A DNA stretch of 32,642 nt from Corallococcus sp. RDP092CA (GTDB taxonomy: Bacteria; Myxococcota; Myxococcia; Myxococcales; Myxococcaceae). The translations under genes were made by a program, and so were the position numbers. The stretch spans positions 1 to 32,642 of the forward strand of contig NZ_JAYESI010000001.1 of assembly GCF_041903675.1 (NCBI RefSeq), given 5' to 3'. A model generated the notes under the pieces. That model was not told the origin of the DNA and searched no databases. It worked only from the letters and a program-made list of their open reading frames with translations. Within the stretch, counting starts at the first letter, position 1; every line of letters starts with the position of its first letter. Positions 467-29,945 of the stretch are shown one piece after another.

Positions 467-542
467 AGGCCAGTAGCTCCAACGGTAGAGCAGCGGTCTC
501 CAAATCCGCGTGTTGGGGGTTCGAATCCCTCCTGGCCTGCCA
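467..542 (+). tRNA. trnW: tRNA-Trp (anticodon CCA)
   Basis: 76-nt sequence AGGCCAGTAGCTCCAACGGTAGAGCAGCGGTCTCCAAATCCGCGTGTTGGGGGTTCGAATCCCTCCTGGCCTGCCA. The 7-bp acceptor stem is AGGCCAG/CTGGCCT and the T-arm reads GGTTCGAATCC. The anticodon loop CTCCAAA gives anticodon CCA, and the 3' CCA is encoded. The sequence closely resembles E. coli tRNA-Trp. Confidence 0.92.
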
Positions 543-23812: not shown

Positions 23813-24805
23813 ATGTATTTCCAGGACCTCATCCTCACGCTCCAGAAGCACTGGGCCGACCAGGGATGCATCGTCACCCAGTCGTACGACACGGAAGTCG
23901 GCGCGGGCACGATGGCCCCGTACACGTTCCTGCGCGCGCTCGGTCCCGAGCCGTGGAACGTCGCCTACGTGCAGCCCTCGCGGCGCCCCGCGGACGGCCG
24001 CTTCGGTGAGAACCCGAACCGCCTGTTCCAGCACCACCAGTTCCAGGTCATCCTCAAGCCCGCGCCCAAGAACGTCCAGGAGCTCTACCTGGAGTCGCTG
24101 CGGAAGATCGGGATGGATCCGCTGGAGCACGACATCCGCTTCGTCGAGGACGACTGGGAGTCCCCCACGCTGGGCGCCTGGGGCCTGGGCTGGGAGGTGT
24201 GGTGTGACGGGATGGAGGTGACGCAGTTCACCTACTTCCAGCAGTGCGGCGGCTTCGACTGCCGCCCCGTGGCCGCGGAGCTGACGTACGGGCTCGAGCG
24301 CCTGGCCATGTACCTGCAGAACGTGGAGAACGTCTTCGACATCGAGTGGGTCAAGGGCGTGAAGTACCGCGAGGTGTTCCACGCGAACGAAGTGGAGATG
24401 AGCAGGTACGCCCTCCACGAGTCCGACCCGCAGATGCTCTTCGCGATGTTCGACGCGTACGAGAAGGAGTGCAAGCGGCTCATCGAGCGCCACCTGCCGC
24501 TGCCCGCGTACGACTACGCGCTGAAGTGCTCGCACACGTTCAACCTGCTGGACGCGCGCGGCGCCATCTCCGTCACCGAGCGCGCCAACTTCATCAAGCG
24601 CGTGCGTGACAACGCGCGCCTGTGCGCGGAGGGCTACCTCCAGATGCGCGAGCGGCTGGGCTTCCCGCTGACGAAGACGCCGTGGACGGTGGGCGAGCAG
24701 CCGCCGGTGCTGGAGGGCAGGCCCGCCAGCGACTACTGGAAGACGGTGCAGCTGAACAAGCCGGTGGAGAAGAAGGAGAAGGCGGAGGTGTCCCGTGGCG
24801 CGTGA
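23813..24805 (+). CDS. glyQ: Glycine--tRNA ligase alpha subunit
   Basis: [83 protein letters not shown] is the hallmark GlyQ sequence. Confidence 0.95.
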
Positions 24806-26894
24806 TCTGCTGCTGGAGGTCGGCGCCGAGGAGATCCCGGCGTCGTTCATCATCCCCGCGCTGGAGGACCTCCAGCGCGTGCTCACCGAGCGCATGGCCG
24901 ACGCCCGCCTGAAGCACGGCGAGGTGCGCACGTTCGGCACGCCGCGCCGGCTGGCCGTCTGGGTCCGCGACGTGGCGGACTCGGGCGAGGACATCACGAA
25001 GGAGGTGCTGGGCCCCAGCGCCAAGGCCGCCTTCGACGCGCAGGGCAAGCCCACCAAGGCGGCGGAGAAGTTCGCCGAGGGGCTCAAGCTGTCCGTGGAC
25101 GCGCTCGGGCGCACCACCACGGCCAAGGGCGAGTACGTCTCCGCGCGCGTGGAGGAGAAGGGCCGTCCGGCGGAGGCCATCCTCCAGGACGCGGCGCACG
25201 CGGCGGTGCACGGCATCAACTTCAAGAAGTCCATGCGCTGGGGTGACGTGGACACGGCGTTCGCCCGCCCGGTGCAGTGGATGGTGGCGCTCCTGGGCGA
25301 CACGGAGCTGCCGGTGGTGCTGGGCGACGTGAAGGCGGGCCGGACGACCTACGGCCACCGCTTCCTCGCGCCGGGCCCCATCGTGCTGAAGGCGCCCGCG
25401 GACTACGAGGCCGCGCTGGAGAAGGCGCACGTGGTGGCGGACATCGCGAAGCGCCGCGCGGAGCTGGTGCGCAAGGTGACCGCCGCGGCGAAGGCGGAGG
25501 GCGCGCAGCTGCTGGAGGACGAGGGGCTGGTGGACCAGGTGACGAACCTGGTGGAGCTGCCGAGCCCCGTGGTGGGCCGCTTCGAGGAGCGCCACCTGGA
25601 CCTGCCGCCCGAGGTGCTGGTGCAGGAGATGAAGAGCCACCAGCGCTACTTCTCGCTGACGGACGCGAAGGGGAAGCTGCTGCCGCGCTTCATCGCCGTG
25701 TCCAACACGCCGGTGCGCGACGAGCAGCTGTCCCTGCGCGGCTACCAGCGCGTGCTGGCGGCGCGGCTCGCGGACGGGCGCTTCTTCTTCGACGAGGACC
25801 GCCGCACCCCGCTGGCCGACCGCGTGGAGAAGCTGGGCCGCGTGGTGTGGCAGGGGCAGCTGGGCACGTACCTGGAGAAGGTGGAGCGCTTCCGCTCGCT
25901 GGCGCTCTGGCTGGCCCAGGCCACGGGCATGGCAGGGGAGTCCGCCACGGTGGAGCGCGCCGCCACGCTGTCCAAGGCGGACCTCGTCACCGGCATGGTG
26001 GGCGAGTTCCCGGAGCTCCAGGGCGTGATGGGCCGCGAGTACGCGCGCGCGGGCGGTGAGCCCGAGGCGGTGGCGCTGGCCATCTTCGAGCACTACCTGC
26101 CCCGCGGGGCCGAGGACGCGCTGCCGTCGCAGGACGCGGGCGCGCTCATCGGCCTGGCGGACCGGCTGGACTCGCTGTGCGGCATCTTCGCCATCGGCAA
26201 GGCGCCGTCGGGCGCGGCGGATCCGTTCGCGCTGCGCCGCGCGTGTCTGTCCATCATCCGCATCGTGCTGGGGCGCGGCTACCGCTTCAGCCTGTCCGCC
26301 GCGGTGGACGAGGCGCTGCGCCTGCTGGCCCCCCGGCTGGCCAACGTGAAGCGCAAGCCGGGGGAAGCGGCCCCGCGCGAGCAGGTGCTGGAGTTCTTCC
26401 GCGGCCGCCTCAAGGCGCTGTGGGGCGAGCAGCACCGCACCGACGTCGTGGAGGCGGTGCTGGCCGTGGGCTTCGACGACCTGGTCGCGGCGAAGAAGCG
26501 CCTGGAGGCCCTGAGCGTGCTCGTGGGCCACGCGGACTTCCAGCCGCTGGCGGCGGCGTTCAAGCGCGTGGTCAACATCGTGGAGAAGCAGGGCAAGGAC
26601 GTGGCCGGCGGGCAGACCAACCCGCAGCGCTTCACGGACGAGCCGGAGAAGCACCTCCACACCGCCTTCACCCAGGCGCGCGCCAGGGTGGGCGAGCACG
26701 TGCGCGCGGACGACTTCGCCAGCGCGCTCAAGGAGATCACCGGCCTAAAGCCCGCCGTGGACACCTTCTTCGACAAGGTGATGGTGATGGCCGAGGACAA
26801 GGACCTGCGGGAGAACCGCATCCGGTTCCTCACGGAGATTGGCGCCCTGTTCAACCAGGTGGCGGACTTTTCCAAGATCCAGGCCGAGGCCTGA
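24795..26894 (+). CDS. glyS: Glycine--tRNA ligase beta subunit
   Basis: GTG 24795 with SD GGAGG at 24784-24788 overlaps the glyQ 3' end by 11 nt. The product [57 protein letters not shown]... is the GlyS family. 699 aa. Confidence 0.93.
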
Positions 26895-26896
26895 GG
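26890..26896. repeat. Putative target-site duplication, left copy (CCTGAGG), containing the glyS TGA stop
   Basis: It lies immediately outside IRL. An identical heptamer sits immediately outside IRR at 28245-28251. Confidence 0.5.
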
Positions 26897-28244
26897 GCGT
26901 GAGAAAAAATTAACGATACTGATGCGTCCGCAGGACGCATAAGCATCTCTGTGCGAGCATGACTCGCCATGGCGGGAAGCAGACGGCCGCGAGTGCGTGT
27001 GCTGCGGCCGAGACGGGCTCAGGTGCTGACGGCTCGGACCTATGAGCAGTTGGTTGACCGAGGTCATCCGGTCCGAGCCGTATGGGCGGCTGTCGAAGCG
27101 CTAGACATGTCGGACTTCGAGCGCGCCATCCGCGCTCGTCCCCATCACGCGGGCCGTTCGGCGGTGGACCCGAAGCTGTTGCTGGCGCTGTGGGTGTATG
27201 GGCAGATGGAGGGGCTCTCCAGCGCTCATGCCATTGCTGCCAGGCTGCGCACGGACGTTGCGTATTGGTGGTTGTGCGGCGGCGTCGGAGTGTCGGCACA
27301 TACGCTGTCCTCCTTCATGACGCGCTCAGGCCCTGCCTTCCGGGCGTTGCTGGGCAAGCTGCTGGATGACCTGTGCAGCCGCGGTGCCGTACGCCGGCCA
27401 CGGCGACTTGCACAGGACGGCACGCGTGTGCGGGCCTCCGCAGGGGCCGCCTCTTTTCACCGCAAGGCCACCCTGCAGAAACGGGCCACTGAGGCTGCTG
27501 CCGCCGGCCAGTGCCGGCGGGGCGCCAGCCCCCAGGCACGTGCGGCGCGCAAACGCGCTCGGGCCGATTTACAGGCTCGGGCGGCACTCGCGCTTGCTGC
27601 TTTGCCGGCAGCGGCACGGCGTAAGAAACGTGCGAAGGGGGGCGCTCGTGGCGAACCCCGAGCCTCTCTCACCGACCCACAGGCACACGTGATGCGCATG
27701 CCAGACGGCGGCTACCGCCCCGCCTACAACGCGCAGGCCGTCTCGGACGTGGAGAGCCGGCTCGCATTGGCCGGTCGTGTCACCAATGAGGGGGCGGACA
27801 CGGCCCAGTTGCTACCGATGGTGCACTGTGTGGCCCACGTCCTGGGACTCAAGCCCGAAGCTTGGTTGGTAGACGGGGCCTATCGGAATCTCAAGGCCTT
27901 CTCCGCGCTCGAATCGCAGGGCATTCGTGTCTTCTCTCCTCTACCGGCGCGCAAGAACCTGCTTCCACCGGGGGAGCAGCGCAGGCGCCGACGAGGCGAA
28001 CCCATCGAGGCGTGGCGTGCGCGGATGCAGACACTCGCAGGCAAGCGCACATACGCCCAGCGCGCACCGACGGCGGAACTGCTCAATGCGCAGGTCAAGG
28101 AGCGCCAAGGCCTGCGCAGGCTTCACGTACGAGGTCGCAAGCGAGCCGAAGCTGCATGGCTGCTCGCACTCGTCGCCCACAACCTTCTGCTCGCCATCGC
28201 GCAAGGGTGGCTCGGCGAGCCGGAAGGCTCATTTTTTCTCACGC
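26897..28244 (+). mobile_element. Complete insertion sequence, IS1182-family-like (IS5/IS4 superfamily), about 1348 bp, with 14-bp perfect terminal inverted repeats
   Basis: IRL GCGTGAGAAAAAAT (26897-26910) and IRR ATTTTTTCTCACGC (28231-28244) are perfect reverse complements. Including the flanks gives a 23-bp IR with one mismatch (26888-26910 vs 28231-28253). The element holds a single DDE transposase ORF with a DUF772-like N-terminus and is abruptly AT-rich at its ends against about 70% GC context. The 7-bp direct repeat CCTGAGG flanks it (26890-26896 and 28245-28251). Its size fits the IS1182 family range. Confidence 0.78.
26922..26940 (+). other. Perfect 8-bp hairpin just inside IRL, upstream of the transposase start
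   Basis: ATGCGTCC-GCA-GGACGCAT. IS elements commonly carry such structures to block translation from read-through transcripts or to bind transposase. Confidence 0.4.
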
Positions 28245-28249
28245 CCTGA
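26969..28249 (+). CDS. IS1182-family DDE transposase (DUF772 N-terminal domain plus DDE_Tnp_1-like catalytic domain)
   Basis: 426 aa. The N-terminal region has the DUF772/InsH-like motif DPKLLLALWVYGQMEGLSSAHAIAARLRTDVAYWWLCGG...HTLSSFMTR. The catalytic region reads HVMRMPDGGYRPAYNAQAVSD...LVDGAYRNLKAFSALESQGIRVFSPLP. The C-terminus reads RLHVRGRKRAEAAWLLALVAHNLLLAIAQ. The ORF ends with the TGA inside the right-hand CCTGAGG. Confidence 0.8.
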   Translation: MAGSRRPRVRVLRPRRAQVLTARTYEQLVDRGHPVRAVWAAVEALDMSDFERAIRARPHHAGRSAVDPKLLLALWVYGQMEGLSSAHAIAARLRTDVAYWWLCGGVGVSAHTLSSFMTRSGPAFRALLGKLLDDLCSRGAVRRPRRLAQDGTRVRASAGAASFHRKATLQKRATEAAAAGQCRRGASPQARAARKRARADLQARAALALAALPAAARRKKRAKGGARGEPRASLTDPQAHVMRMPDGGYRPAYNAQAVSDVESRLALAGRVTNEGADTAQLLPMVHCVAHVLGLKPEAWLVDGAYRNLKAFSALESQGIRVFSPLPARKNLLPPGEQRRRRRGEPIEAWRARMQTLAGKRTYAQRAPTAELLNAQVKERQGLRRLHVRGRKRAEAAWLLALVAHNLLLAIAQGWLGEPEGSFFLTP

Positions 28250-28251
28250 GG
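28245..28251. repeat. Putative target-site duplication, right copy (CCTGAGG), containing the transposase TGA stop
   Basis: Identical to 26890-26896. Because CCTGAGG is a near-palindrome (CCTNAGG), the alternative reading is a 23-bp imperfect IR with no TSD. Confidence 0.5.
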
Positions 28252-28415
28252 CCCCACCGCCGCTTCACCGCCGGAGCGTGCCCGTTTCCCCACCAAGGGA
28301 GCGGCGCACGCCTTCCGGGCGGGGGCGGATGTCCGCGGGCGGGCGTCCGGGAATAGCGGCAGCCCTATTCAGTTGCCCGGGGCAGGGCCGCGTTCCTACA
28401 CTCCGCCCCCCTCTG

Positions 28416-29945
28416 ATGCGCCTCCACTTCCTGACCCCCGCGCTGCTGCTCCTCGGGGCGTGTTCGATCGAGTCCGAACCGAACCCGCCTCCGTCCACCC
28501 GCTTCGTGTACCCCAGCGGGGTGGCGTTCTGGCGCCCTCCGTCGGCGGGAGGCCCCTCGGCGAGCAACGGCTACCTCTTCGTCGCGAACGCCAACTTCGA
28601 CAACTGCTACGACTCCGGTTCAGTGGTGGCGCTGAACCTGGACACGCTGAGCACGCAGCAGGACGGGCAGGCCGTCGCCTTGCCCCACCTGGGCGGCGCG
28701 CTCCCGGAGTCCTCGCTCGCCTTCGAGGACCTGGCGTCCTCGGACGAAGCGCTCGTGCAGATCCGCAGCTTCGCGGGCGAGCTGGGCCTGTGGGTGAACC
28801 CGGCCACCGGGCTGCCGCGCCTGTTCGTGCCCTCGCGCGCGGAGGGCAACAACCTGCACGCCGTGGACGTGGGCCTGACGGCCAGCGGCGCGCCGACGCT
28901 CACCTGCGTGCAGGGCGGCGTGGACTGCCGCAACGGCGCGCTGTCGCTCACGGACGACATCCCGTCATCCCTCAGCGAGGAGGGCCGCTCGGGCCTGCCG
29001 CGCGCGCCGTCGCCCATTGGCGTGACGGTGGATGACGCGAGCGGCACCCTGTACGTGACGCACTCGGAGGCGGCGGACTCGCCCGCGAAGTCCAGCACCA
29101 ACTTCGAGAACTACCTGGCCACGGTGAAGCTGGACAACCCCACGCGGGACACGCTGGGCTTCATCCCGCTGTCGCCCGAGGGCTACGCCTACGGCGGCTC
29201 GGACTCGGTGACGGTGGGCGCGGGCTACCTCTACGTGACGGGCCGCAACTTCGTGGCCGGCGTCAGCGGCACGGTGGCCGCCAACTTCGTGCTGCGGCTG
29301 GTGGACAAGAACCAGCCCGGCACGCTCCTGGAGCCCTCGTTGCAGTCGGTGTACCGCATCCGCGAGGCGCGCGCGGTGCGCGTGGTGCCCCGGCCGGTGA
29401 CGGCGGCGGAGCTGGCGGCGGATCCGAACTTCGTGCGCGAGCGGCTCTACCTGCTGGCGCGCGGCCCGGACACGCTGCTCACCATCGACTTCGAGTACGA
29501 CGCGGTGCCGGGCGGCGCCGCCAGCCAGCCCTACTTCCGGGTGGTCTCCGCGGTGCCCATGCCCGACGGCGTGAGCGACATGCAGCTCATCTCTCGCACG
29601 CCGGGCACGTCCAACGCGGACACCAACATCATCGCGGTGACGAGCACGGGCGACAGCGCGGTGTCCTTCTACGACGAGGCGCTCGGGCAGGTCGTGGCGC
29701 AGGTGCCGCTCGTCAACGACCTGAACCAGGGCAGCAACCCGTCGCAGGCCTTCGGGCTGACGGTGGACAACCCCGCCGGGACGAACGCGGCGCGGCTGTT
29801 CGTGACCAACTTCGGTGACAGCCAGGTATCCATCGTGGACATCCCCGACCTGGCGCGTCCCCAGGACGCGCGGCTGGTGGCGAAGCTGGGCATCCAGCAG
29901 CAGCGCGATCCGAACCAGGGCACCAGCGTGTGCCAGGAGAACTGA
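28416..29945 (+). CDS. Lipoprotein with YVTN-type beta-propeller-like repeats
   Basis: ATG 28416 gives MRLHFLTPALLLLGAC with lipobox LLGAC. The ORF-track start 27927 is an in-frame extension running back into the IS. Repeated motifs of the 40-residue YVTN beta-propeller type occur (YLFVANANFDN, LYVTHSEAADS, LYVTGRNF, LFVTNFGDSQVSIVDIP). 509 aa. Confidence 0.72.
   Translation: MRLHFLTPALLLLGACSIESEPNPPPSTRFVYPSGVAFWRPPSAGGPSASNGYLFVANANFDNCYDSGSVVALNLDTLSTQQDGQAVALPHLGGALPESSLAFEDLASSDEALVQIRSFAGELGLWVNPATGLPRLFVPSRAEGNNLHAVDVGLTASGAPTLTCVQGGVDCRNGALSLTDDIPSSLSEEGRSGLPRAPSPIGVTVDDASGTLYVTHSEAADSPAKSSTNFENYLATVKLDNPTRDTLGFIPLSPEGYAYGGSDSVTVGAGYLYVTGRNFVAGVSGTVAANFVLRLVDKNQPGTLLEPSLQSVYRIREARAVRVVPRPVTAAELAADPNFVRERLYLLARGPDTLLTIDFEYDAVPGGAASQPYFRVVSAVPMPDGVSDMQLISRTPGTSNADTNIIAVTSTGDSAVSFYDEALGQVVAQVPLVNDLNQGSNPSQAFGLTVDNPAGTNAARLFVTNFGDSQVSIVDIPDLARPQDARLVAKLGIQQQRDPNQGTSVCQEN

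What the first reader, a model, noticed from the sequence alone, without database searches (positions are those of the whole stretch)
26888..28253. IS1182-family-like insertion sequence inserted exactly on the glyS stop codon, with the duplicated heptamer CCTGAGG supplying the TGA stop for both glyS and the transposase
IRL begins 2 nt after the glyS TGA (26892-26894), so the stop lies inside the left CCTGAGG copy. The transposase ORF has no stop of its own within the element. It terminates at the TGA inside the right CCTGAGG copy (28247-28249), immediately outside IRR. Two readings are possible. Under reading (a), a 7-bp TSD of a CCTNAGG-type palindromic target and an element that relies on the target sequence to end its transposase ORF. 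Under reading (b), 23-bp imperfect IRs with no TSD. In either case the IS has replaced whatever native 3' UTR/terminator glyS had, and it now separates glyQS from the downstream lipoprotein genes. The element looks intact (complete ORF, perfect IRs), so it may be active.
Basis: seen in the sequence. Interest (0 to 1): 0.6.

Follow-up and report, generated by a model that had tools for sequence, protein, structure and literature searches.

The report
ISCoco1-like insertion sequence at glyS stop
A 1350-bp mobile element of a known family (IS1182, close to ISCoco1 of Corallococcus) sits on the stop codon of glyS; the duplicated target CTGAG restores the glyS stop on one side and ends the element's own transposase gene on the other, a tidy variant of known transposon behaviour.

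Summary
An IS1182-family insertion sequence (26896-28245, 1350 bp, 15-bp perfect terminal inverted repeats, intact 426-aa DDE transposase) lies directly after the glyS stop codon. The interpretation needs correcting. Twelve insertion sites of this element and its 89-93% identical relatives, one copy that splits an IS256-type transposase gene, and two IS-free glyS alleles show that the duplication is the pentamer CTGAG, not CCTGAGG. They also show that "no duplication" is wrong. The extra C and G, and the extension of the 15-bp repeat to 23 nt, come from a quasi-palindromic target (AGNNCTGAGNNCT). In every close copy the transposase ORF runs through the right repeat and stops at the TGA of the right CTGAG. 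The left CTGAG preserves glyS, whose product ends QAEA as in an IS-free strain. The native glyS 3' region is displaced by 1.35 kb, not replaced. Seven of nine classifiable sites are stop codons of co-oriented genes, and all copies share one orientation. The element is 91% (protein) and 90.4% (DNA) identical to the named ISCoco1. Target-supplied stop codons are known (IS870, ISMt1), and so is an IS1182-family transposase gene with no internal stop (IS1272). This is a new member of a known kind, of modest interest.

The parts
24795..26894 (+). glyS (glycine--tRNA ligase beta subunit), complete. Its product ends ...FSKIQAEA and the stop codon is TGA 26892-26894.
   Evidence: TIGR00211 scores 824 bits over profile positions 1-684/684. 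The same 699-aa length and QAEA* ending occur in IS-free C. coralloides CP172866 (L020).
26891..26895 (+). Left copy of the target duplication CTGAG. It contains the glyS stop codon.
   Evidence: CTGAG flanks all 12 copies examined. A single CTGAG is present at the IS-free glyS stop in L020 and L011.
26896..28245 (+). The insertion sequence proper, 1350 bp, a member of the ISCoco1 group of the IS1182 family.
   Evidence: The boundaries are set by the point where the flanks of 12 copies diverge. It is 90.4% nt identical to the ISCoco1 copies of C. coralloides DSM 2259 and 99.9% identical to L003-L006.
26896..26910 (+). Left terminal inverted repeat, GGCGTGAGAAAAAAT.
   Evidence: It matches the right repeat perfectly over 15 nt.
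26915..26947 (+). Stem-loop in the transposase 5' leader. Its function is unknown.
   Evidence: Inverted repeat I7 and the minimum-free-energy fold. The region as a whole folds no better than shuffled sequence (z = -0.78). The stem is kept with a G-C to G-U change in L001 and L015.
26969..28249 (+). Transposase ORF, 426 aa. The final Pro codon straddles the IS/target boundary, and the stop TGA 28247-28249 lies entirely in the right duplication copy.
   Evidence: The exact protein is WP_374259480, annotated in Corallococcus sp. RDP092CA. DDE-type motifs QD150GT, LVD302GAY and Y362..R365....E370......K377 were located; their assignment as catalytic residues is inferred.
28231..28245 (+). Right terminal inverted repeat, ATTTTTTCTCACGCC. 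It encodes the last residues of the transposase (FFLTP).
28246..28250 (+). Right copy of the target duplication CTGAG. It supplies the transposase stop codon.
28251..28415 (+). Native glyS 3' and intergenic region, intact but displaced. It holds a conserved stem-loop (about 28271-28318) and a conserved promoter-like TTGCCC-N18-TACACT (28373-28402).
   Evidence: Alignment A1 with three IS-free Corallococcus loci. The fold gives z = -2.54.
28416..29945 (+). Downstream gene, 509 aa. Its N-terminus MRLHFLTPALLLLGAC looks like a lipoprotein signal peptide with a lipobox.
   Evidence: The sequence is. A gene of the same length and position follows glyS in L011 and L020. The lipobox reading is my inference.

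Best explanation
This is a simple insertion of an intact 1350-bp DDE-transposase insertion sequence of the IS1182 family. It is a close relative (91% aa, 90.4% nt) of ISCoco1 of Corallococcus coralloides. The host is a Corallococcus genome. The element recognises a short quasi-palindromic target, about AGNNCTGAGNNCT. It integrates with a staggered cut that duplicates CTGAG. Five bp is the longest duplication consistent with all copies. Nested 3-bp (TGA) or 1-bp staggers cannot be excluded, because the pentamer is palindromic around its central G. All copies found so far have the same orientation relative to the asymmetric centre of the target. The transposase ORF therefore runs through the right inverted repeat and is closed by the TGA of the right CTGAG copy, while the left copy regenerates whatever the target encoded. 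Here the target was the glyS stop codon (GCC TGA G). glyS stays unchanged, and its native 3' region and the downstream lipoprotein gene, with its own upstream region, are pushed 1355 bp away. Shown: family membership, boundaries, the duplication, the single CTGAG at empty sites, the intact flanks, the fixed orientation, and the recurrence at stop codons. Inferred: the size of the stagger, asymmetric target recognition as the cause of the orientation bias, and purifying selection against gene-disrupting insertions as the main reason why most surviving copies sit on stop codons.
For: Family: NF033551 scores 296 bits against a cutoff of 270; Pfam finds DUF772, DDE_Tnp_1 and DDE_Tnp_1_6; NCBI names a member of a 94%-identical protein cluster 'IS1182-like element ISCoco1 family transposase'. 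Boundaries and duplication: 12 insertion sites from Corallococcus, Myxococcus and Pyxidicoccus all read X-CTGAG-[GG..1350-1353 bp..CC]-CTGAG-Y, with X and Y unrelated between sites. Split gene: in M. xanthus CP068048 the element interrupts an IS256-type transposase gene. Joining the flanks with one CTGAG restores ...LERGLRGVRLVIADGHAGL... and gives a continuous PF00872 match (91 bits, profile 140-246). With zero or two CTGAG the match is 57-61 bits and ends at the junction. Empty sites: C. coralloides CP172866 has a 699-aa glyS ending QAEA* with the sequence GAGGCCTGAGCCCC. Corallococcus sp. 4LFB has GCGGCCTGAGGCCC. Each has one CTGAG, at the stop codon. Intact flank: alignment A1. Target logo: A at -4 in 10/10 sites, G at -3 in 9/10, C at +3 in 10/11, T at +4 in 6/11. 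Stop in the duplication: seen in every copy. Activity: L003, L004 and L005 are 100% identical over 1350 bp at different flanks, and the window copy differs from them by about 1 nt. Stop-codon sites: 7 of 9 classifiable left flanks are ORF ends with coding-type GC3 of 0.85-1.00. These include a full-length L-serine ammonia-lyase (profile 1-450/450) and a thioesterase.
Against: No transposition was observed, so activity is inferred. The stagger length cannot be fixed from sequence alone. The orientation bias and the absence of read-through copies could partly reflect how copies were found, namely by look-ups of 426/427-aa proteins. Against that, none of the 26 listed members of the three close clusters is longer than 427 aa. 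The ISfinder entry for ISCoco1 could not be read, so I do not know what is already recorded about its duplication. No promoter was found in the element with a sigma-70 consensus scan.
Confidence: 0.88

Rival explanations
1. One reading: the element is 1348 bp (GCGTGAG...CTCACGC) and duplicates a 7-bp CCTNAGG-type target.
For: In the window alone, CCTGAGG is present on both sides. The window's reconstructed empty site is the same string under a 7-, 5-, 3- or 1-bp model.
Against: In the other sites the 7-mers differ at their outer positions. L001 has GCTGAGG and CCTGAGT; L007 has GCTGAGG and CCTGAGG; L015 has GCTGAGG and CCTGAGC; L016 has CCTGAGG and CCTGAGT. The inner G and C are constant because they are the first and last bases of the element. 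The IS-free allele L020 reads CCTGAGC.
Confidence: 0.02
2. One reading: the CTGAG/CTCAG arms belong to 23-bp imperfect inverted repeats and the element makes no target duplication, as reported for the IS1182-family member IS1272.
For: The 23-nt inverted repeat exists. IS1272 of the same family inserts without duplication (PMC4923244).
Against: IS-free glyS alleles already contain one CTGAG at the site. The interrupted IS256-type gene is restored only with exactly one CTGAG. Beyond CTGAG the 'repeat' is site-specific: GGC/GCC occurs only in the window.
Confidence: 0.01
3. The same element and target, but the real stagger is 3 bp (duplication TGA; element GGGCG...CGCCC, 1352 bp) or 1 bp. This would resemble the TNA-type 3-bp duplications of some IS5-family groups (from memory).
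For: CTGAG is palindromic around its central G. Every nested partition therefore predicts the same junctions and the same empty sites (reasoning). IS1182 and IS5 transposases are related: there is a weak NF033581 hit.
Against: Nothing in the sequences speaks against it. By the usual convention the longest identical flanking repeat (5 bp) is reported.
Confidence: 0.2
4. The position on stop codons is not a by-product of selection. The element actively seeks gene ends (TGA stops of co-oriented genes), for example so that it is transcribed by read-through from the host gene.
For: 7 of 9 classifiable sites are stop codons of co-oriented genes. Only about 7% of background CTGAG sites, and about 17% of those outside ORFs, lie at stop codons. 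This gives binomial P = 3e-7 and 1e-4. No consensus promoter was found in the element. The tnp start codon lies only 75 nt after the host stop.
Against: The 13-bp motif contains TGA. A rough estimate of mine puts about half of all non-disruptive motif sites at stop codons, which gives P = 0.09. Two copies are not at gene ends: L017 is intergenic and L007 lies inside another IS. The 45% identical relative L018 has the same CTGAG flanks, which suggests plain sequence recognition.
Confidence: 0.2

Closest known systems
ISCoco1 (IS1182 family; Corallococcus coralloides DSM 2259; transposase WP_014396122)
   Same: Same length (1350 bp). Same 426-aa transposase with no gaps in the alignment. Same repeat core (GGSGTGAGAAAAA). 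Same CTGAG flanks. Same stop codon in the right CTGAG. Two of its three full copies also sit on stop codons.
   Different: 91% aa and 90.4% nt identity, so it is a sister element rather than the same IS. The left repeat differs at two positions (GGCGTGAGAAAAAAT against GGGGTGAGAAAAATT). I could not read the ISfinder entry.
IS870 (Agrobacterium vitis) and ISMt1 (M. tuberculosis): stop codon generated by the CTAG target
   Same: The transposase ORF has no stop inside the element. A specific palindrome-like target supplies it (PMC13630536, citing Fournier et al. 1993, J Bacteriol 175:3151).
   Different: They do not belong to the IS1182 family (IS870 is an IS630-family element, from memory; not tested here). 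The target is CTAG and the stop is TAG, against CTGAG and TGA here.
IS1272 / TnSha1 (IS1182 family, staphylococci)
   Same: Same family. The transposase gene has no stop codon within the element. It prefers palindromic or hairpin sites at gene ends (PMC4923244; PMC5678879).
   Different: IS1272 recognises structure without primary-sequence specificity, inserts in both orientations, makes no duplication and deletes part of the hairpin. The element here has a fixed primary-sequence target and one orientation, duplicates CTGAG and deletes nothing.
IS5-family elements with short palindromic targets (CTAG / TNA types)
   Same: A related DDE transposase (weak NF033581 hit). Short palindromic target with an ambiguous boundary between duplication and repeat.
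   Different: The transposase scores far below the IS5 model cutoffs (36 bits against 140) and above the IS1182 cutoff.

Membership tests
IS1182 family | The transposase matches the family model above the curated cutoff. | tested here: met
   NF033551 scores 296.4 bits against a cutoff of 270. The IS5, IS4 and IS1380 models all score far below their cutoffs.
IS1182 family | Single ORF with an N-terminal DUF772 domain and a DDE_Tnp_1 / DDE_Tnp_1_6 catalytic domain. | tested here: met
   PF05598 at residues 62-128, PF01609 at 247-406, PF13751 at 346-406. There is one ORF of 426 aa.
IS1182 family | Terminal inverted repeats, and a length within the family range (about 1.3-1.95 kb; ISfinder figure from memory). 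| tested here: met
   15-bp perfect repeats at 26896-26910 and 28231-28245. The element is 1350 bp.
IS1182 family | Catalytic DDE triad present. | tested here: inconclusive
   The motifs QD150GT, LVD302GAY and Y362-R365-E370-K377 are present. Assigning them to catalytic residues rests on resemblance to IS4/IS5-type signatures from memory. No structure or alignment to a characterised enzyme was made.
ISCoco1 (same IS / isoform) | At least about 95% aa identity of the transposase and at least 90% nt identity (ISfinder convention, from memory). | tested here: not met
   91% aa and 90.4% nt. It is a sister element of the ISCoco1 group, not an isoform.
Elements with a target-supplied stop codon (IS870 / ISMt1 type) | No in-frame stop inside the element, and a stop that lies in a sequence-specific target or duplication in every copy. 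| tested here: met
   The ORF is open through the right repeat, and the TGA lies in the right CTGAG in all 11 sites whose right flank is known. This is a functional class, not a phylogenetic family.
IS1272-type stem-loop-replacing insertion | [quoted passage not shown] | tested here: not met
   CTGAG is duplicated and nothing is deleted relative to the IS-free alleles.

The most novel reading that the evidence does not exclude
The ISCoco1 group may be a 'stop-codon-parking' insertion sequence. Asymmetric recognition of AGNNC-TGA-GNNCT would place it, always in one orientation, on the TGA stop of host genes. Under this reading one duplication preserves the host gene and terminates the transposase, and also puts the promoter-poor element under read-through transcription from the host gene. 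This would be an evolved low-cost niche, not merely what survives selection.
Probability: 0.2. Interest if true: 0.5.

Novelty: new member of a known kind. Interest (0 to 1): 0.3.

Why it matters
For annotation, it fixes the true boundaries: a 1350-bp element with a CTGAG duplication. It shows that glyS is intact and that the downstream lipoprotein gene keeps its own upstream region, so the insertion is probably near-neutral. For transposon biology, it documents an IS1182-family lineage with a strict primary-sequence target and a single orientation. Its transposase stop codon comes from the target, and seven of nine classifiable copies sit on host stop codons. This contrasts with the structure-directed, duplication-free behaviour of IS1272 in the same family. 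It also parallels the CTAG-dependent IS870 in another family. The case is useful and testable, but it is not a new kind of system.

Tried and rejected
1. An exact look-up of the window's glyS found nothing. I used close homologues instead. 2. A metagenome scan with the 20-nt left end returned only a chance match in AT-rich DNA (L014). 3. The single genome-contig scan gave only one close copy. The other copies came from protein look-ups, which may bias the sample towards 426/427-aa products. 4. The 34% identical relative L002 has its own stop 145 nt before its right repeat and no CTGAG flanks, so it says nothing about this target. 5. I considered that the insertion caused the 4-codon-shorter GlyS tail (QAEA against QAETAAAA). 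This is rejected, because IS-free C. coralloides CP172866 has the same 699-aa allele. 6. I considered an extended left-flank motif AGGS, seen in the first five sites. This weakened to AG at -4/-3 once the ISCoco1 copies were added. 7. A terminator-like hairpin plus T-run in the right repeat (28217-28239) is not conserved in ISCoco1 or L019, so I do not claim it. 8. The leader region 26885-26990 that contains the 5' hairpin folds no better than shuffles (z = -0.78). 9. No sigma-70-like promoter was detected. 10. 'ISCoco1' appears in no searchable paper.
Full report
**Observation**

The region reads ...CAG GCC GAG GCC TGA G | GGCGTGAGAAAAAAT...(1350 bp)...ATTTTTTCTCACGCC | CTGAG GCCCCACC. glyS (24795-26894) is a full-length glycine--tRNA ligase beta subunit (TIGR00211, 824 bits). 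It is preceded by glyQ.

The repeat finder returns a 23-nt, 96% complementary inverted repeat at 26888-26910 and 28231-28253. Its 14-nt core occurs only at these two places in the window, where 0.04 matches are expected by chance.

The ORF 26969-28249 encodes 426 aa and has no stop before the TGA at 28247-28249. It passes the NCBIfam IS1182 model (296 bits, cutoff 270). It carries the DUF772, DDE_Tnp_1 and DDE_Tnp_1_6 domains.

**Other copies**

The exact transposase is recorded for Corallococcus sp. RDP092CA (WP_374259480). NCBI names a member of a 94%-identical protein cluster 'IS1182-like element ISCoco1 family transposase' (C. coralloides DSM 2259, WP_014396122).

I collected twelve insertion sites:
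- the window;
- Myxococcus sp. RHSTA-1-4 (L001);
- three Logan contigs with the identical transposase (L003-L005);
- M. xanthus CP068048 (L007);
- a JGI contig (L010);
- three ISCoco1 copies in DSM 2259 (L015-L017);
- Corallococcus sp. EGB (L019);
- Pyxidicoccus parkwayensis (L021).

All elements are 1350-1353 bp and 89-100% identical to one another (L021 was not in that matrix and its length is).

In every case the flanks agree only over CTGAG on each side, always in the same orientation relative to the transposase gene. The C before and the G after the pentamer that make the window's 'heptamer' are different things on the two sides. On the left they are one target base plus the first base of the element. 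On the right they are the last base of the element plus one target base. In L001 the corresponding heptamers are GCTGAGG and CCTGAGT. The 7-bp reading is thus refuted.

**Is CTGAG a duplication or part of the element?**

Three independent empty-site tests agree.

1. In M. xanthus the element splits an IS256-type transposase pseudogene. Joining the flanks with one CTGAG restores ...SWLELLRQLLERGLRGVRLVIADGHAGL... and a continuous PF00872 match (91 bits, profile 140-246). With zero or two pentamers the match stops at the junction (57-61 bits).
2. C. coralloides CP172866 (L020) has a 699-aa glyS with the same QAEA* end and no IS. Its sequence is CAGGCCGAGGCCTGAGCCCCCC, with one CTGAG at the stop codon.
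3. Corallococcus sp. 4LFB (L011) reads GCGGCGGCCTGAGGCCCGG, again with one CTGAG.

The no-duplication reading is therefore refuted as well. One caveat remains. CTGAG is palindromic around its central G, so a 5-bp, 3-bp (TGA) or 1-bp stagger all predict the same junctions and the same empty sites. Five bp is the longest duplication consistent with all copies. The true stagger needs an experiment or an insertion into a variant target.

**Target**

Beyond the pentamer, position -4 is A in 10/10 sites and -3 is G in 9/10. Position +3 is C in 10/11 and +4 is T in 6/11. In a roughly 70% G+C genome, ten A's out of ten have a chance probability of about 6e-9.

The target is therefore a quasi-palindrome, AGNNCTGAGNNCT, that is better conserved on the left. 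In the window the flanks happen to be GGC/GCC.

Palindromic targets have been noted for some IS1182-family members (Siguier et al. 2015, as cited in PMC5678879 and PMC4923244). A 45%-identical relative (L018) is also bounded by CTGAG on both sides, so the target preference appears older than the ISCoco1 group.

**Stop codons**

In all close copies the ORF ends ...TTT TTT CTC ACG CC|C TGA G. The last sense codon straddles the boundary and the stop lies wholly in the right duplication copy.

The 45% relative and a 34% relative have their own stops 105-145 nt before the right end. Running the ORF through the right repeat is therefore a derived feature of this group.

There are precedents. IS870 and ISMt1 use a CTAG target to create a TAG stop (PMC13630536, citing Fournier et al. 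1993). [quoted passage not shown] Unlike IS1272, this element makes a duplication, deletes nothing and has a primary-sequence target.

**Consequences at this locus**

glyS is unchanged, because the left CTGAG regenerates GCC TGA. From the right CTGAG onward the window aligns with the IS-free glyS-lipoprotein spacer of three Corallococcus genomes (alignment A1). The aligned region includes a conserved stem-loop (about 28271-28318; z = -2.54). It also includes an invariant TTGCCC-N18-TACACT just upstream of the ATG (28416) of a 509-aa putative lipoprotein.

The IS has therefore displaced the native 3' region, not replaced it. The downstream gene keeps its own upstream sequence. I infer a near-neutral insertion.

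**Recurrence at gene ends**

At 7 of 9 classifiable sites the left TGA terminates a co-oriented ORF with coding-type composition (GC3 0.85-1.00). The genes are:
- glyS;
- a full-length L-serine ammonia-lyase (profile 1-450/450) and a thioesterase;
- a TPR protein;
- a choice-of-anchor protein;
- two hypothetical proteins.

The two other classifiable sites are an intergenic site and the IS256 pseudogene.

In about 90 kb of surrounding DNA, after excluding the target sites themselves, only 5 of 70 CTGAG sites lie at stop codons. That is 5 of the 29 sites outside ORFs. These backgrounds give binomial P = 3e-7 and 1e-4.

My rough estimate for the full 13-bp motif, which contains TGA, is that about half of all non-disruptive sites would be stop codons. 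That gives P = 0.09. The simplest explanation is a target that contains TGA, combined with selection against gene disruption. Active homing to gene ends remains a minority possibility.

**Orientation**

All twelve copies share one orientation. No listed member of the three close protein clusters exceeds 427 aa. This points to asymmetric target recognition, although my sampling through 426/427-aa proteins is biased.

**Activity**

The ORF is intact and the repeats are perfect over 15 bp. The DDE-type motifs are present (D150, D302, E370; inferred). Copies that are 100% identical occur at different flanks in other samples, and the window copy differs from them by about one base. Recent mobility is likely but has not been demonstrated.

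**Verdict**

The finding is a real and correctly located insertion sequence. Its family was correctly named and the point about shared stop codons is correct. The duplication length, the no-duplication alternative and the 'replaced 3' UTR' claim are wrong. It is a new member (91% aa) of the named ISCoco1 group. The target-supplied stop and the palindromic target both have published precedents. Interest is modest.

Noticed in passing
window 28271-28318: A strong stem-loop about 20 nt after the native glyS stop (MFE -46 kcal/mol for 28251-28330, z = -2.54). It is conserved in three IS-free Corallococcus loci. It has no U-tract. It may be the glyS terminator or a regulatory hairpin, and it now lies 1.35 kb from glyS.
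   Followed up: partly
window 28373-28402: An invariant TTGCCC-N18-TACACT lies only 13 nt upstream of the ATG (28416) of the 509-aa putative lipoprotein gene. It is conserved in all four aligned genomes (A1). It falls below the promoter scan's threshold, and it would imply a very short or absent leader.
   Followed up: partly
window 26892-26913: The left junction closes all three reading frames within 22 nt: TGA in the duplication (26892), TGA in the left repeat (26900) and TAA (26911). Any host ORF entering the element would be terminated quickly.
   Followed up: no
window 26915-26947: A 15-bp-arm hairpin (GATACTGATGCGTCC / GGACGCATAAGCATC) lies in the transposase leader, between the left repeat and the ATG. 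It is retained in L001 and ISCoco1 with a G-C to G-U change. Its function is unknown.
   Followed up: partly
glyS C-terminus, window 26880-26894; P0121-P0145 and P0264-P0277: The GlyS C-terminal alanine tail varies in length among Myxococcaceae: QAEA, QAEVAA, QAETAAA, QAETAAAA, QAEAPASAA. The shortest form (699 aa) occurs in several Corallococcus strains, with and without the IS.
   Followed up: yes
L007 1-1597 (M. xanthus CP068048, next to the IS copy): The M. xanthus copy is nested in an IS256-type pseudogene. Next to it are genes with SMODS/DncV-like nucleotidyltransferase, bacterial HORMA and AAA ATPase domains. This looks like a CBASS-type defence cluster in an IS-rich island.
   Followed up: no
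L018 1-1444 (Logan SRR27026606): A 45%-identical IS1182-family relative has different repeats (AGTTTGTGAAT...) but is also bounded by CTGAG on both sides. Its transposase stops about 105 nt before the right end.
   Followed up: partly
window 467-542: tRNA-Trp (CCA) gene. It is the only Rfam or ARAGORN hit in the window.
   Followed up: no
window 28217-28239: A terminator-like hairpin GAGCC-GGAA-GGCTC is followed by the T-run of the right repeat, just before the transposase stop. It is not conserved in ISCoco1 or the EGB copy, so it is probably fortuitous.
   Followed up: partly
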